Positions 33,643 to 37,687 of a stretch of DNA of 45,271 bases are shown here, piece after piece (position 1 is the stretch's first letter; the number at the start of each line of letters is the position of its first letter). Source of the DNA: Deltaproteobacteria bacterium (GTDB lineage: Bacteria; Omnitrophota; Gorgyraeia; Gygaellales; Profunditerraquicolaceae); NCBI GenBank assembly GCA_050258655.1, contig JBLMZF010000121.1:1-45271 (forward strand). Direction: 5' to 3'. Below the pieces are notes generated by a model, which did no database searches, was not told where the DNA came from, and saw only the letters and a list, made by a program, of their open reading frames with translations. The translations under genes and the position numbers were made by a program.

Positions 33643-34503
33643 TTACCGGTCCTCCTTCCTCTGGAAAAGTACCGCATGCCATTTCCTGCGCCCCATCGCC
33701 TTCACTGCCCGTATCCTCCTGTCGACGAACCGCCGGCGGAAAGAGCCGTAATTCTGGTTTGAGATACCCGAGACGGCCAGCCAGCCTCCCGGCTTGACCA
33801 GCGGGATCAGCCTGTCCTTGAACTTTATCAGGTCTTCCGTGAAAAGGTTGGCGGCGACGAAACTGAAACGGCGGGCGGACGCAAAACGGGCGAAATCGGC
33901 GGCCCGCAGATGACGGTCGGGACAACCGTTGCGGCGGAAGTTCCTGCGCGCCGTCTCCACCGCCTGAGGGTCGTTATCGATGGCCCGGATGAAATGCGCG
34001 CCGTACGCGCAGGCGATCAGCGAAAGGATCCCCGAACCGGTCCCGATATCGAGGAAATCGCCGAGGTCCTCCCTGTGCCCGCGGATCATCTGCGCCACCA
34101 TTTGAGTAGTGGCATGCAGGCCGGTGCCGAAAGCGGATGTGGTATCGAGGCGCAAACCCCTCACTCCGGGAGGCGCCGACTCCCCCTGTTCCCAGACGGG
34201 GATGATCCGGATATCCCGGGTGATGTTGAAAGGCTTGAAGTATTTCTTCCAGCGGGTCTTCCAGTCGCTGTCCTTGAGACGGATCAGGGAATAGGAAATA
34301 CCTTTAAGCTTAAGGGCCTTGACCGCCTCTGCGGTCACCCGCGCCTGACGGGCCGAATCCACGAACACGGAAAGGGAGCGTTTGCCCTTCTCCTCTTTCT
34401 CGGATATCTTTTCCAGGGGGATGCCTCCCTTCAACAGCAGCAGACGCAGCAGTTCCGCCTGTCCCTTGCCGCTCTCCCTGAGCCTGAACCGGACCTCGAT
34501 CAT
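33643..34503 (-). CDS. prmA: Ribosomal protein L11 methyltransferase
   Basis: DWKTRWKKYFKP, AFGTGLHATT, LDIGTGSGILS, IDNDPQAV and LAVSGI. Start at ATG 34503 (ATGA overlap). Confidence 0.88.
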   Translation of the reverse strand: MIEVRFRLRESGKGQAELLRLLLLKGGIPLEKISEKEEKGKRSLSVFVDSARQARVTAEAVKALKLKGISYSLIRLKDSDWKTRWKKYFKPFNITRDIRIIPVWEQGESAPPGVRGLRLDTTSAFGTGLHATTQMVAQMIRGHREDLGDFLDIGTGSGILSLIACAYGAHFIRAIDNDPQAVETARRNFRRNGCPDRHLRAADFARFASARRFSFVAANLFTEDLIKFKDRLIPLVKPGGWLAVSGISNQNYGSFRRRFVDRRIRAVKAMGRRKWHAVLFQRKEDR

Positions 34504-34991
34504 TTCCCCCTCCTTTCCAAAGACAGGACGACGGAAGCGGCGGCATGGCTCGGGATGATCTTCCAGTAGGCCTGCAACAGGCGCGCCGTCTCCTCTTTTT
34601 CTTTGATGACAAAGCCGTGTTTGCGGTAAAAGGCGACTGCCCAATGCGCGGCTTCCCACGTCCCTACCAGGACCTGATTGCGCGCACGTTTGAGCAGATG
34701 CTTGAGCAATCTCCCTCCGACGCCTTTACCCTGTTCTGAGCCGGCGACGTAGGCGTGGCGTATCAGCGTCACCTTCTCCAGCTCCTGTATCCCCATCACG
34801 CCCTTGAGCTCGCCGCCCTGTTCAAAGCCCCAGAACACAACGCCCTCGCAGATCTCATGCCAGAGCTCATCAGCGGGCATGTACGGTTCTTTCCAGCATT
34901 CAGAAGGGATCACACCTTTGTAAACGGCGGCAGCATCATTGATGATCTCCAGCATCCGCTCGAGATCTTTGGAAGTGCATTTCCTGATCAT
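34500..34991 (-). CDS. GNAT family acetyltransferase
   Basis: IINDAAAVYKGVIP, LIRHAYV...QGKGVG..LL and AVAFYRKHGF. Confidence 0.88.
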   Translation of the reverse strand: MIRKCTSKDLERMLEIINDAAAVYKGVIPSECWKEPYMPADELWHEICEGVVFWGFEQGGELKGVMGIQELEKVTLIRHAYVAGSEQGKGVGGRLLKHLLKRARNQVLVGTWEAAHWAVAFYRKHGFVIKEKEETARLLQAYWKIIPSHAAASVVLSLERRGK

Positions 34992-35485
34992 TGCGGCGGG
35001 ATCTCCGATAAGGTCGGCACGAACCAGGTCAGAACAGTATAGTATTTCGTATCCACGAACACCCACAGTTGATGGTCTTTACCGCTTTGTGGCAGGAAAT
35101 GGACCGCGAGGAAATTCTTCCCCTGCAGTTTTTCCCACTGGTCCTTGTGCCTGAGCGTGAAATCGGGAGAATGGGAGGTGAACAGGTCCCAGCCGGCGTC
35201 ATCGATAGTGACCTTCATCGAGGCCGGGTCGAACCCAAGCTCCACTGCCTTGGCCCCCGCAGCCGCAACTGCCCGCGCCCGGAGCTCGGGGTCGGTAAGC
35301 GGCAAAAAAGGCCCGCTCTGAGCATCGGGTCCATAATCCGCCTGCCTCAGGTACGCGGTCCCCGTCTTATGCGCGAACGGGAGCCTGTCGATCCAGGCCT
35401 TTTTGAGATAAGCGCGGTTGGTGAAGACGATCGTCACCGCCAGCGCGCCCAGTACTATCAGTTTGATCTTGCGCATCATGCTCAT
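34988..35485 (-). CDS. Hypothetical membrane-anchored protein
   Basis: 165-aa ORF with an N-terminal hydrophobic helix; its stop overlaps the GNAT start. Confidence 0.6.
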   Translation of the reverse strand: MSMMRKIKLIVLGALAVTIVFTNRAYLKKAWIDRLPFAHKTGTAYLRQADYGPDAQSGPFLPLTDPELRARAVAAAGAKAVELGFDPASMKVTIDDAGWDLFTSHSPDFTLRHKDQWEKLQGKNFLAVHFLPQSGKDHQLWVFVDTKYYTVLTWFVPTLSEIPPQ

Positions 35486-35528
35486 TTCCCGTCGAGAAAC
35501 CGGTCAAAACAAAGTGGCATCAGGCACA

Positions 35529-35556
35529 TTGCCGCAGCCGGTACAGGCGATATAAT
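35529..35556 (+). promoter_or_regulatory. Sigma-70 promoter with no downstream CDS, facing the tandem structured element
   Basis: TTGCCG-N16-TATAAT (perfect -10); predicted start near 35563. Confidence 0.65.
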
Positions 35557-35570
35557 AAAATTGAGATTTG

Positions 35571-35800
35571 GGACAAGTCATGAGAGTACCTCTTCCGTCG
35601 AAGGGCGGAAAAAAAATAGGATGGGCTGTTCTAGACCCCGCATCATCCTATAAAGGTATAAAAAGCCCATGGCTTGTCCACACTAGGACAGGAGTATGAG
35701 AGTGCCTCTGCCTGCGGGCAGATAAAAAATGGGATGGGCGTTCTAGACAACATCCCTTCCCATAAAGGCACAAAAAGCCCATATTCCTGTCCTTTTTTTT
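35571..35800 (+). ncRNA. Candidate novel structured ncRNA: two tandem ~108-nt domains plus a U-tract
   Basis: Units 35571-35679 and 35686-35792 share the same four helices with compensatory changes. Wobble pairs read G-U on the plus strand. T8 follows unit 2. Confidence 0.7.
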
Positions 35801-35940
35801 CGCCACGTGGCGAACACCCTCGTATCCAAAGTTATTTTATCATAAAAAAGGGCGGGTTTAAATCAAATGAGGCCCGCGGCGCAGTGTAAGACCAAGCCCG
35901 GGCCGTGTCAGGTCCGGCTGGACAAGACCGTCGCGCGGGG

Positions 35941-36342
35941 TCACCGCCCCTTCGAACAAGAAGTTTTCCAGATGGGATTGCCCCGGCTCGTAGACAAGAT
36001 GACGGGCCATGGGGAGACAGGCACAGATAGATGCGTGAAGCGACGGCGCACCCTGGACGCCAAAGGAGATATGGGCCGCTGCGCAGCCATCGCACGGTCA
36101 CATAAGGCTGGATCCTGCGCATCCCGTAATGCTGCCATGGTTTTCCAGCAGTCTCCGGGCTCGAGGATGTCCCTTTCCAGAGGTGCCGGCGCCAGGCGGT
36201 CCCTTATAAAACGCGTTACGGGCTTGCCTCCGTACGTGTAGCCTAAACCCAGATCTCTTCCGTTACGAACGGTCACCATGACCATATCCGTTCCACCTTC
36301 ACACCGCACTTCGTTCACGGTGATTTCGTCGACCCTGATCAT
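35941..36342 (-). pseudogene. Probable remnant of a mandelate racemase/muconate lactonizing (enolase superfamily) gene
   Basis: VMVTVR.G..LGLGYTYG....I...LAP.......W..M matches the N-terminal capping domain. Similarity decays after about 90 aa and no barrel domain follows. Confidence 0.5.
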
Positions 36343-36439
36343 CCCGTCGTTCCTCCTTCTTCTCCCATTATTAACTTGATCGGAGCAGACAGGAATAGGT
36401 ATTTTCTGTTTTTTACTGATCTTGCTATGGGAAAAACTG

Positions 36440-37687
36440 TCAGGAACGGCGGGCGGAGAAGGTCAGAAAGGCGTCGAGCGCGGCGGGGAACGGCGAGAGC
36501 GTGCGGCGGATGACCCCCTGGAGCGCGGAGACACAGACACCGTAATTGGTTATCGGCACCTTCATTTCGCGGCACTTCCCGATGCGGTGAAGCATCTCCC
36601 TGCGGGTGAGCATGCAGCCCCCGCAGTGGATGACCAGCTTGTATTCACCGAGGTTTTCGGGGTAATCGCGGCCGGCACAGACGTCGACGGCGAGGTCGCA
36701 GCCGCAGTACTGCCTTAACCAGCGCGGGATCTTGACCCTGCCGATATCGTCCTCGATGGCGTGATGGCTGCAGGCCTCGGCGATAAGCACGCGGTCTTGC
36801 GCCTTCAGGCTGTCGATGGCGGCGGCACCGCGGGCGGCCTCGTTCAGATCGCCCTTGAAGCGTGAGAAAAGAACCGAGAAGGTCGTGCATTTGACGGAAG
36901 GCGGCGTATCGGCGGTCATCTTCAGCACCACCTGCGAATCGCACACGACGAGGTCAGGCGGCGCGTTCAGCCGGGCGAGCAGGGCGGGATATTCACGCTC
37001 CTTTACCACCATCACGGCGCTGTCGTTGTCCAGCGTCTCACGGATCGCCTGGACCTGTGGCAATATGAGGCGGCCTTTCGGCGCCTGAAGGTCAATAGGC
37101 ACGATAAAGACCGCCAGACCCCCGGAAGGCACCAGATCGCCGAGGAGCGGCGGCGGGTTCAGGAAACTGTCCGGACAGACATCGAGCAGATGTTTCTTGA
37201 GCGGGTTGATAGAGGCATCACGGCCCGCAAGATCAAGGCTGGAACACTGGATAAGGCGGCACGATATTTTTTCCAGGTTCTTGAGGAACTCCGGCGAAGG
37301 CCTCTTCAGGTCGGTCTTATTGACGACCAGGATGACCGGCGTCTCCCTCTTTTTCGCTTCAGCGGCGATCTCATCCTCGTACGCGCCCCAGGCGTCCGGC
37401 TCGAGCATCAGCACGATCACATCCGAACGGTCGAAGATCTTGCGTGTCTTCTTCAGGCGCAGTTCAGCCAGTACTGAGGTATCGTCGATGCCGGCGGTAT
37501 CGAGGAAGACCACCGGCCCCAGCGGCAGAAGCTCCATCGCCTTTTCCACCACATCGGTGGTGGTGCCGGGGACAGGCGAAGTGATGGCCACATCCTGGCC
37601 CGCGACCAGGTTCAGGAAGCTCGATTTCCCGACGTTGGTCCGTCCAAAAAGGCCTATCTGTAATCTGAGCGACTTAGGCGTCTTCAT
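36440..37687 (-). CDS. hydF: [FeFe]-hydrogenase maturation GTPase
   Basis: GRTNVGKSS, GTTTD, DTAG, NKTD, APKGRLILPQ, EACSHH and HCGGC. Confidence 0.96.
   Translation of the reverse strand: MKTPKSLRLQIGLFGRTNVGKSSFLNLVAGQDVAITSPVPGTTTDVVEKAMELLPLGPVVFLDTAGIDDTSVLAELRLKKTRKIFDRSDVIVLMLEPDAWGAYEDEIAAEAKKRETPVILVVNKTDLKRPSPEFLKNLEKISCRLIQCSSLDLAGRDASINPLKKHLLDVCPDSFLNPPPLLGDLVPSGGLAVFIVPIDLQAPKGRLILPQVQAIRETLDNDSAVMVVKEREYPALLARLNAPPDLVVCDSQVVLKMTADTPPSVKCTTFSVLFSRFKGDLNEAARGAAAIDSLKAQDRVLIAEACSHHAIEDDIGRVKIPRWLRQYCGCDLAVDVCAGRDYPENLGEYKLVIHCGGCMLTRREMLHRIGKCREMKVPITNYGVCVSALQGVIRRTLSPFPAALDAFLTFSARRS

What the first reader, a model, noticed from the sequence alone, without database searches (positions are those of the whole stretch)
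35529..35814. Orphan plus-strand ncRNA of two tandem ~108-nt domains with covarying helices and a possible double pseudoknot
Seen: a promoter TTGCCG-16-TATAAT, then unit 1 (35571-35679), a 6-nt spacer, unit 2 (35686-35792) and T8, in a region with no credible plus-strand CDS. Both units fold alike despite divergence. P1 is GGACAAGUCAUG/CAUGGCUUGUCC versus GGACAGGAGUAUG/CAUAUUCCUGUCC. P2 is GUACCU/AGGUAU versus GUGCCU/AGGCAC. P3 is UUCCGUC-GAAG-GGCGGAA versus UCUGCC-UGCG-GGCAGA. After an A-rich linker, P4 is AUAGGA/UCCUAU versus AUGGGA/UCCCAU. Changes are compensatory and the wobbles read G-U only on the plus strand. Conserved unpaired segments are AGA, AAAAAGCC and a P4 loop UGGGC(U)GUUCUAGAC. 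Loop GGC can pair with GCC and UUCU with AGAG (both strands of the P1-P2 internal loop), and UCUAGA is self-complementary, allowing kissing loops. I cannot match it to tRNA, 6S, SRP, Y RNA or the riboswitch and ribozyme consensuses I know. Inference: a new structured RNA class (protein sponge, ribozyme or processed RNA pair).
Basis: partly seen in the sequence, partly recalled or inferred. Interest (0 to 1): 0.9.

Follow-up and report, generated by a model that had tools for sequence, protein, structure and literature searches.

The report
Orphan tandem two-domain structured RNA gene
A soil bacterium, probably of the phylum Omnitrophota, carries a small gene for an RNA built of two similar, tightly folded halves that fit no known RNA family and turned up in no other genome searched, so its shape is clearly under selection but its job is unknown.

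Summary
At 35571-35679 and 35686-35792 (+) lie two paralogous ~108-nt units. A promoter-like site comes before them (35529-35556, 10 of 12) and T8 follows (35793-35800). Each unit folds far better than shuffles (z -5.5 and -6.2). The two units differ at 25 aligned positions. Fifteen of these lie in helices, and 30 of 31 aligned pairs are kept, 6 by double compensatory change (simulation P about 5e-6). Thirty-three of 43 unpaired positions are identical. All 4 wobble pairs are G-U on the plus strand only, and the unpaired bases are A-rich, so the plus strand is the RNA strand. A strain variant in another soil metagenome changes unit 1 at three places, and all three keep pairing. No Rfam family matches, and there is no tRNA or tmRNA. 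A covariance model found no convincing copy in samples of relatives, family, order, class and phylum, in 80 hydF loci, or in pattern scans of genome, metagenome and viral collections. The genome holds only these two copies, so it is not a MITE. Transcription, the proposed pseudoknots and any function remain untested. Best reading: a species-restricted, stand-alone structured RNA that shows the same invariant surface twice. It is a candidate new RNA family, so far known from one lineage only.

The parts
35529..35556 (+). Promoter-like site TTGCCG-16-TATAAT. The inferred start lies near 35563, 6-8 nt before P1 of unit 1.
   Evidence: 10 of 12, the best of 5 sites in 35300-36100 (shuffles give 0.6 +/- 0.9). 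In the strain variant of run X4 the -10 hexamer is unchanged and the -35 reads TTGCCT. Function is inferred, not shown.
35571..35679 (+). Unit 1 (109 nt). P1 35571-35582/35668-35679; J1/2 AGA 35583-35585; P2 35586-35591/35654-35659; P3 35593-35599/35604-35610 with loop GAAG; A-rich linker 35611-35615; P4 35616-35623/35644-35651; invariant loop part 35624-35636; J4/2 AA 35652-35653; J2/1 AAAAAGCC 35660-35667.
   Evidence: With the shared fold enforced the energy is -42.8 kcal/mol against an MFE of -43.5.
35680..35685 (+). 6-nt spacer ACACTA between the units.
   Evidence: In the X4 variant it carries 1 substitution and 1 inserted base, so it is not conserved.
35686..35792 (+). Unit 2 (107 nt). 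P1 35686-35698/35780-35792 (13 bp; one whole base pair more than unit 1, made by two separate 1-nt indels); J1/2 35699-35701; P2 35702-35707/35766-35771; P3 35708-35712/35717-35721 with loop UGCG; linker 35722-35728; P4 35729-35736/35756-35763; invariant loop part 35737-35748; J4/2 35764-35765; J2/1 35772-35779.
   Evidence: The shared fold equals the MFE, -49.2 kcal/mol.
35793..35800 (+). T8 directly after the G+C-rich foot of P1 of unit 2. It is the inferred intrinsic terminator or 3' end of the RNA.
   Evidence: Read directly. The simple terminator scan did not call it, because it allows loops of 3-8 nt only. Function is inferred.

Best explanation
This is a stand-alone gene for a structured RNA of about 235 nt on the plus strand. 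It sits in a 345-bp gap between two minus-strand genes. It is probably transcribed from the promoter-like site at 35529-35556 and ended by P1 of unit 2 plus U8. The RNA consists of two paralogous domains that arose by tandem duplication. Each domain has a long closing helix P1 (12-13 bp) and an asymmetric internal loop (AGA opposite AAAAAGCC). Then comes P2 and a three-way junction carrying a short capped hairpin P3, an A-rich linker and a hairpin P4. The apical loop of P4 holds the invariant GGGC(U)GUUCUAGAC. Shown here: selection has kept the helices through compensatory change, has kept 33 of 43 unpaired bases identical in both domains, and the strand is plus. Inferred: the invariant unpaired bases build a sequence-specific tertiary fold or recognition surface that the RNA shows twice. 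Candidates for that fold are loop GGGC with GCCC of the internal loop, and/or a 6-bp kiss between the two UCUAGA loops. On this view the RNA acts in trans as a bivalent binder of a dimeric protein or of two copies of a small ligand. It would not be a switch, because P1 helices of 12-13 bp are too stable to be ligand-gated. The partner and the biological role are unknown.
For: Structure: z -5.49 and -6.20 for the units and -6.61 for the whole transcript, which folds as two independent domains. The same fold is at or within 0.7 kcal/mol of the MFE in both units. Selection: of 25 substitutions between the units, 15 lie in paired positions. Of 31 aligned pairs, 30 are kept (6 double compensatory, 2 single, 1 broken). 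In 200,000 random placements this was reached once. Two separate 1-nt indels add one complete base pair to P1 of unit 2. All 10 unpaired substitutions fall in the P3 tetraloop, the linker or the 3' half of the P4 loop, and the other 33 unpaired positions are identical. Strand: 4 G-U and 1 mismatch on plus against 0 G-U and 5 mismatches on minus. The unpaired bases are A-rich on plus (39 A of 86). Unit 1 is 8.9 kcal/mol weaker on minus. Independent variation: a contig of run X4 (another study) spans 35498-35713 with 8 substitutions and 1 insertion. Only 3 lie in unit 1, all in helices and all keeping a pair (U-G to C-G, G-U to G-C, U-A to U-G). Five substitutions and the insertion lie in the 79 nt of flank and spacer. 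Gene-like frame: the best promoter-like site sits at the right distance, U8 follows P1, and there is no credible plus-strand ORF inside or downstream. The tandem arrangement is bridged by contigs of runs from at least two studies (X3 35582-35733; X4 35498-35713).
Against: No homologue was found outside this species, so covariation rests on two paralogues plus a few low-depth variant contigs (depth 2.2-3.2; the tool warns these may hold errors). The structure was derived from the same two sequences used in the simulation. Gene conversion between the units could keep some stretches identical without selection. Transcription, its strand and its ends are not shown: the RNA-library runs are unstranded contigs that also cover the neighbouring genes. 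The promoter consensus is that of E. coli sigma-70 and may not apply to this phylum. The terminator has an 81-nt branched 'loop', which is unusual for intrinsic terminators. Promoter-like sites also exist on the minus strand just upstream (35866-35839 and 35862-35834; 9 of 12). Nothing identifies a partner: no CsrA, Hfq or Ro gene was found, and the neighbouring ORFs give no lead.
Confidence: 0.55

Rival explanations
1. The functional strand is minus. On this view the tandem element is a long structured leader (5' UTR, possibly a tandem sensor) of the orphan membrane-anchored ORF 34988-35485 (-). It would be transcribed from the promoter-like sites at 35866-35834.
For: All 13 ORFs with Pfam hits that I tested in the window lie on the minus strand, though I tested only one plus-strand ORF. 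Two minus-strand promoter-like sites (9 of 12) lie just upstream of unit 2. Unit 2 folds as well on minus (-50.3, z -6.04). The element lies directly upstream of an ORF on that strand.
Against: On minus all 4 wobbles become A-C mismatches, with 0 G-U in 65 pairs, and the unpaired regions become U-rich. Unit 1 loses 8.9 kcal/mol. The 347-nt minus transcript has z -3.26 against -6.61 for plus. The X4 variant creates a new U-G, which would be A-C on minus, in P1. The U8 and the 10-of-12 promoter make sense only on plus.
Confidence: 0.1
2. It is a plus-strand tandem ligand sensor (riboswitch-like). Ligand binding to the two aptamer-like domains would decide whether transcription stops at P1 of unit 2 plus U8. 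If it does not stop, it reads on as antisense RNA into the convergent pseudogene and the hydF operon.
For: There are two homologous three-way-junction domains with invariant junction and loop bases, as in tandem aptamers. The second P1 doubles as the terminator stem. An alternative local pairing is possible in both units: AGAG with CUCU, and GG(U/C) with GCC. It is the MFE in unit 1. The convergent operon is hydG, an aspartase-like gene and hydF. Riboswitch-controlled antisense RNAs are known from other bacteria (recalled, no call).
Against: No Rfam riboswitch scores even at E 10. P1 helices of 12-13 bp are far more stable than ligand-gated P1 stems usually are (general knowledge). No plus-strand gene lies downstream. 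A second plus-strand hairpin with a U-run at about 36386-36415 would stop read-through before hydF. The element is absent from 80 hydF loci of relatives.
Confidence: 0.1
3. It is a pair of self-cleaving or nuclease-processed units. The primary transcript would be cut in or near the 6-nt spacer into two RNAs of about 108 nt.
For: Each of the two complete units is closed by its own long P1 and they are separated by only 6 nt. The invariant internal-loop and loop bases could form a catalytic core.
Against: There is no match to any ribozyme model in Rfam at E 10. The junction strands (0, about 5-6 and 2 nt) do not fit the hammerhead core (read directly; the hammerhead consensus is recalled). No read ends could be assessed.
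Confidence: 0.07
4. It has no RNA function. It would be two adjacent copies of a small mobile or palindromic DNA element (MITE- or REP-like), or a neutrally decaying tandem duplication.
For: Each unit has 12-13-bp terminal inverted repeats with a shared outer GGACA(A/G)G. The element and the neighbouring ORF are confined to this lineage.
Against: The 2.09-Mb genome holds only 2 copies, and they are adjacent. There are no flanking target-site duplications and no transposase or integrase among the neighbours tested. There is no match in phage or plasmid collections. Compensatory changes occur in three internal helices as well as in the terminal one, and the strand-specific wobble pattern is not expected for DNA elements or neutral decay.
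Confidence: 0.05

Closest known systems
Tandem glycine riboswitch (Rfam RF00504)
   Same: Two homologous domains of about 100 nt with three-way junctions lie head to tail in one transcript. Invariant junction and loop bases allow possible inter-domain contacts.
   Different: No score against any Rfam model. It is not in a 5' UTR, it has its own promoter-like site and a U8, and no gene follows on that strand. The P1 helices are 12-13 bp long.
THF-I riboswitch type of fold (three-way junction with a pseudoknot between a hairpin loop and the P1-P2 internal loop; recalled from memory, no call)
   Same: The order of elements is the same: P1, internal loop, P2, three-way junction with two hairpins. 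One hairpin loop (GGGC) is complementary to the 3' strand of the internal loop (GCCC; -5.9 kcal/mol as a bare duplex).
   Different: No sequence or profile match. The pseudoknot is unproven, since all its bases are invariant and GGGC can pair within P4 instead. There is no folate-related gene context.
Stable protein-binding RNAs with a long 5'/3' closing stem (Y RNA/YrlA, 6S RNA) and multi-site sponges (CsrB/RsmZ)
   Same: It is a stand-alone small RNA closed by long terminal helices, and the same motif is presented more than once.
   Different: No Rfam match. No Ro/TROVE, CsrA or Hfq gene was found in the genome (91% complete). The GGA triplets lie in the P4 stem, not in loops. It is not a single long hairpin with a central bubble like 6S.
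MITE or REP-type palindromic repeats (Correia, RPE, RUP; names recalled)
   Same: The units are about 108 bp with terminal inverted repeats and fold as hairpin-rich RNA if transcribed.
   Different: There are two adjacent copies only, no target-site duplication, none in about 600 relatives' genomes (the samples overlap), and compensatory changes in the internal helices.

Membership tests
Any of the 4227 Rfam 15 families | Covariance-model score at or above the family's gathering score | tested here: not met
   0 matches in the whole window at gathering. In permissive scans of 35450-35900 and of each unit alone, the best is PK-BYV at 16.2 bits against a 50-bit cut-off, E 0.19-0.79.
tRNA / tmRNA | Detected by ARAGORN | tested here: not met
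   0 genes in the window.
Tandem riboswitch (glycine type) | Lies in the 5' UTR of a regulated gene on the same strand, with an expression platform | tested here: not met
   No credible plus-strand ORF lies inside or downstream. U8 follows P1 directly.
Tandem riboswitch (glycine type) | Two homologous aptamer-like three-way-junction domains in tandem | tested here: met
   This is a likeness of architecture only, with no sequence relation.
THF-I-like pseudoknotted three-way junction | Pseudoknot between a hairpin loop and the P1-P2 internal loop, supported by covariation | tested here: inconclusive
   The complementarity GGGC/GCCC is present in both units. All its bases are invariant, so there is no covariation, and a competing pairing exists within P4.
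MITE / REP-like repeat | Many dispersed copies in the genome | tested here: not met
   Only the 2 adjacent copies by BLAST, by loop pattern with 2 mismatches and by covariance model. The genome is 91% complete in 160 contigs.
MITE / REP-like repeat | Target-site duplication flanking each copy | tested here: not met
   The flanks read GATTTG / ACACTA / TTTTTTTT, with no direct repeat (one search lists none).
Y RNA / YrlA | Ro (TROVE) protein encoded in the genome | tested here: not met
   PF05731: 0 matches in G000, while the control genomes ring.
Csr/Rsm sponge RNA | CsrA encoded in the genome and several GGA motifs in hairpin loops | tested here: not met
   PF02599: 0 matches. GGA lies in the 5' strand of P4, not in loops.
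Hfq-dependent sRNA | Hfq encoded in the genome | tested here: not met
   PF17209: 0 matches (genome 91% complete).
Type III antitoxin RNA (ToxI-like) | Tandem RNA repeats followed by a toxin ORF on the same strand | tested here: not met
   No plus-strand ORF follows. No PADLOC hit for the neighbours at E 0.1, except one 12-bit hit for a distant ORF.
Stand-alone bacterial sRNA gene | Own promoter, own terminator and a discrete transcript | tested here: inconclusive
   A promoter-like site (10 of 12) and P1 plus U8 are present. The transcript is not shown, because only unstranded contigs were available.

The most novel reading that the evidence does not exclude
This is the founding member of a new class of structured RNA. 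It would be a pseudo-symmetric two-domain fold in which each three-way-junction domain is locked by a pseudoknot between its loop and its internal loop. The two domains would dock through their palindromic UCUAGA loops, creating paired binding pockets or a catalytic core for a ligand or protein not yet linked to any RNA.
Probability: 0.2. Interest if true: 0.8.

Novelty: categorically new. Interest (0 to 1): 0.55.

Why it matters
If the fold and its expression are confirmed, this would be a new RNA family from Omnitrophota, a phylum with no cultured model and almost no described non-coding RNAs. It also shows a rarely documented route: a complex RNA fold that duplicated in tandem, with both copies kept under selection for pairing and for exact loop sequence. 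The internal paralogy gives covariation evidence even without homologues in other species. That makes the RNA a tractable target for in vitro probing, ligand screens and self-cleavage tests. Its weakness is breadth. It is known from one species and its strain variants, so the biology may be narrow, and the function cannot be read from gene context.

Tried and rejected
Homologue hunting found nothing convincing.
- BLASTN of 35560-35810 against 40 relatives gave only 14-26-nt matches. The best, E 0.0039, fall on the P3 hairpin plus A-run.
- Weak covariance-model hits were checked. G149 and G137 lie in one conserved protein-coding stretch (that it encodes a glycine-cleavage protein is my reading). 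G093 and G176 lie inside ORFs of 366-395 and 558 aa. G267 is a pair of terminator-like hairpins. G260 overlaps what I read as the start of an opposite-strand gene. G300 has many broken pairs.
- Exact-pattern scans: genome contigs 0. Metagenome contigs gave 0 and then 7 stretches, none scored by the model at the pattern site. Viral contigs gave 1, 0 and 9 stretches, none scored at the pattern site. All 9 viral stretches carry the 18-nt form, which I did not follow up.
- Phage and plasmid collections gave no match.
- The 80 hydF loci gave a best E of 0.48.

Context gave no lead.
- ORF 34988-35485 has no Pfam, PADLOC or PHROG hit. It has 1 homologue among 5.8 billion proteins and only sub-threshold PepSY-like leads in the Atlas.
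- I first thought the RNA module had replaced the 3' end of the MR/MLE-like gene. I rejected this, because the pseudogene keeps its C-terminal end at 35861-36010.
- A 22-nt, 77% inverted match between 35770-35791 and 36388-36409 is not a third unit (10.3 bits, E 0.29).

Read laying showed little.
- In RNA run X1 no contig covers about 35497-35591, while DNA run X2 bridges it. The small RNA run X3 covers only 35582-35733 of the stretch.

Depth cannot rank the RNA against its neighbours.

Literature: two full-text searches gave 0 papers and 3 papers (2 listed, seen as a search listing only, both on c-di-NMP receptor proteins). Such searches cannot find a sequence, so they say little about whether the RNA is in print. 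Supplements were not asked for.

I did not use complex prediction, structure prediction or fold search.

Full report
WHAT IS THERE. The window is one whole contig (C121, 45,271 bases) of a 2.09-Mb draft genome in 160 contigs, 91% complete. These are TTGCCG-16-TATAAT (35529-35556), unit 1 (35571-35679), the spacer ACACTA, unit 2 (35686-35792) and T8 (35793-35800). The promoter-like site scores 10 of 12 and is the best of 5 sites in 35300-36100, where shuffles give 0.6 +/- 0.9. MAFFT aligns the units with 86% mean column identity over 111 columns.

THE FOLD IS REAL. On the plus strand the units fold at -43.5 and -49.2 kcal/mol (z -5.49 and -6.20; 0 of 200 shuffles as good). The 238-nt transcript 35563-35800 folds as two separate domains (-96.6 kcal/mol, z -6.61). 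RNAalifold recovers P1, P2, P3 and P4, with 5 pairs changed on both sides.

I made a structure-aware alignment of 105 positions, 62 paired and 43 unpaired. The units differ at 25 positions.
- Fifteen differences lie in paired positions. Of 31 aligned pairs, 30 stay canonical: 6 by double compensatory change, 2 by single change, and 1 is broken (U-A to U-U in P4).
- Ten differences lie in unpaired positions. All fall in the P3 tetraloop (GAAG against UGCG), the linker, or the 3' half of the P4 loop.
- The other 33 unpaired positions are identical. They are AGA, AAAAAGCC, AA, most of the A-rich linker, and GGGC(U)GUUCUAGAC.
- I placed 25 random substitutions on unit 1 200,000 times. This kept 30 or more pairs once and never gave 6 double changes.
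- P1 of unit 2 is one base pair longer, through two separate 1-nt indels on opposite strands.

One caveat applies: the structure was derived from the same two sequences.

STRAND. The plus strand has 60 Watson-Crick pairs, 4 G-U pairs and 1 mismatch. The minus strand has 60 Watson-Crick pairs, 0 G-U pairs and 5 mismatches. The unpaired bases are 39 A of 86 on plus. Unit 1 loses 8.9 kcal/mol on minus. The 347-nt minus-strand span has z -3.26. The promoter-like site and the U8 fit the plus strand only.

NOT CODING. The plus-strand ORFs of 43 and 71 aa read homologous parts of the two units in different frames. This follows from the indels of 1, 3, 1 and 1 nt between the units.

INDEPENDENT VARIATION AND PRESENCE. 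Four public runs labelled soil metagenome hold the stretch or part of it. I laid them on 34500-37000.
- A contig of X4 (another study) spans 35498-35713 with 8 substitutions and 1 insertion.
- Three of the substitutions lie in unit 1, and all keep a pair. 35578 T>C turns U-G into C-G. 35659 T>C turns G-U into G-C. 35669 A>G turns U-A into U-G, which would be an A-C mismatch on minus.
- Four substitutions lie in the 73 nt upstream. The -10 hexamer is untouched.
- One substitution and the insertion lie in the 6-nt spacer.
- A variant contig in X1 covers 35712-35797 with 6 differences, two of which are listed. 35755 C>T turns a G-C of the extended P4 into G-U. 35752 A>G lies in the loop.
- These contigs have depth 2.2-3.2, and the tool warns that differences at such depth may be errors.
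- Contigs of X3 (35582-35733) and X4 bridge unit 1 to unit 2, so the tandem arrangement is not an assembly artefact of this contig.
- The RNA-library runs are unstranded contigs that also cover the neighbouring genes, so transcription is not shown.

NO KNOWN FAMILY. Rfam 15 gives 0 matches at gathering in the whole window. Permissive scans of the region and of each unit alone give nothing better than 16.2 bits, E 0.19. ARAGORN finds nothing.

NO HOMOLOGUE FOUND. The own genome holds only these 2 copies, by BLAST, by pattern and by covariance model R1. R1 results elsewhere were as follows.
- Relatives: 0 of 60, and 0 of 39 nearest with laxer filters.
- Family sample: 3 of 150 with weak hits.
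- Order sample: 0 of 150 at E 0.1.
- Class sample: 1 of 150.
- Phylum sample: 4 of 150.

The samples overlap. Every weak hit (18-25 bits) that I opened lies in coding sequence or is a terminator-like hairpin pair. Exact-pattern scans built on the invariant segments found nothing real in 185,579 species genomes, in 241 million metagenome records or in viral contigs. Phage and plasmid collections gave no match.

CONTEXT. HydF (36440-37687, minus) has its closest relatives (76-77% identity) in MAGs titled Candidatus Omnitrophota, so the organism probably belongs to that phylum. The cluster hydG, aspartase-like gene, hydF is conserved in those loci. What lies downstream of hydF differs, and none of the 80 loci holds the RNA. 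The ORF next to the RNA's promoter and divergent from it (165 aa, with an N-terminal hydrophobic anchor) is itself an orphan. It has 1 weak hit in 40 relatives, 1 homologue at 47% identity among 5.8 billion proteins, and no Pfam, PADLOC or PHROG family. The ORFs with Pfam hits in the rest of the contig are housekeeping genes on the minus strand. No transposase, integrase, reverse transcriptase or Cas gene was seen among those tested.

HOW IT MOST LIKELY WORKS. Three things are shown: a plus-strand element, helices under selection, and loop and junction sequences held identical in two paralogous domains. The rest is inferred. The element is probably a stand-alone RNA of about 235 nt, running from the promoter-like site to U8. 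Its invariant unpaired bases would build a tertiary fold or recognition surface that is presented twice, so it would act as a bivalent binder. The long P1 helices argue for a permanently folded RNA, not a switch.

The proposed tertiary pairings remain open. GGGC with GCCC gives -5.9 kcal/mol as a bare duplex. UUCU with AGAG gives only -0.4. GGGC can instead extend P4. The UCUAGA loops are self-complementary and could kiss within one RNA or between two. TCTAGA occurs only 3 times in the 45-kb window (6.8 expected), and 2 of the 3 are these loops. No partner can be named: no CsrA, Hfq or Ro gene was found.

RIVALS. There are four: a minus-strand leader of the orphan ORF, a plus-strand sensor gating termination and antisense read-through, a self-cleaving or processed pair, and a mobile or neutral DNA repeat. 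Each is set out with evidence in its own section. None is excluded by experiment, but each fits the sequence evidence less well.

VERDICT. The reading 'new structured RNA' is supported at the level of structure and of lack of relation to known families.

Noticed in passing
window 35858-36342 (-): This is an internally deleted pseudogene of the mandelate racemase / muconate lactonizing enzyme type. ORF residues 17-87 match residues 33-104 of PDB chain 3cyj_A (E 5e-7). A second frame, 35861-36010, matches residues 315-357 of the same chain (E 9e-6). About 210 residues between the two are missing. A good Shine-Dalgarno sequence still precedes the ATG at 36342.
   Followed up: yes
L136 (G000 contig C102, 3248-3874, minus strand, at the contig end): This is the C-terminal part of another MR_MLE gene (146 bits to PF13378), cut by the contig end. 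It has no DNA overlap with the window, so it is a separate paralogue or an unresolved assembly branch.
   Followed up: partly
window 35799-35814: The perfect 16-nt palindrome TTCGCCACGTGGCGAA overlaps the end of the T8. It folds as a small hairpin (-8.5 kcal/mol, z -3.2) and could be a protein-binding site or part of the 3'-end structure.
   Followed up: partly
window about 36386-36415 (+): A plus-strand hairpin followed by a U-run lies between the hydF stop and the pseudogene start (-10.5 kcal/mol, z -2.9). It would stop plus-strand (antisense) read-through before hydF.
   Followed up: partly
window 35675 (run X1, table 7): One contig of the RNA-library run fits the window up to 35675, near the end of unit 1, and then runs on for 97 unlike letters. 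This may be a different arrangement (a single unit?) in a related strain, or a chimeric contig.
   Followed up: no
window 34988-35485 (-): This orphan 165-aa ORF has an N-terminal hydrophobic anchor and lies divergent from the RNA's promoter. It has one homologue (47% identity) in 5.8 billion proteins and only sub-threshold PepSY-like leads. It may have been acquired together with the RNA gene.
   Followed up: partly
L056-L135 (hydF loci of relatives): The order hydG, aspartase-like lyase, hydF is widely conserved. In several relatives a second radical-SAM gene (about 43% identical to HydG, probably hydE) follows hydF, but not in this window.
   Followed up: partly
L047-L055 (viral contigs): Nine viral contigs hold the 18-nt form of the loop motif GGATGGGCNGTTCTAGAC and none holds the 17-nt form. 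None has the surrounding fold. Whether they share a gene was not checked.
   Followed up: no
window 35583-35593 and 35655-35667 (and the same places in unit 2): An alternative local pairing is possible in both units: AGAG with CUCU, and GG(U/C) with GCC. It competes with P2 and is the MFE in unit 1. It might be a second conformation.
   Followed up: partly
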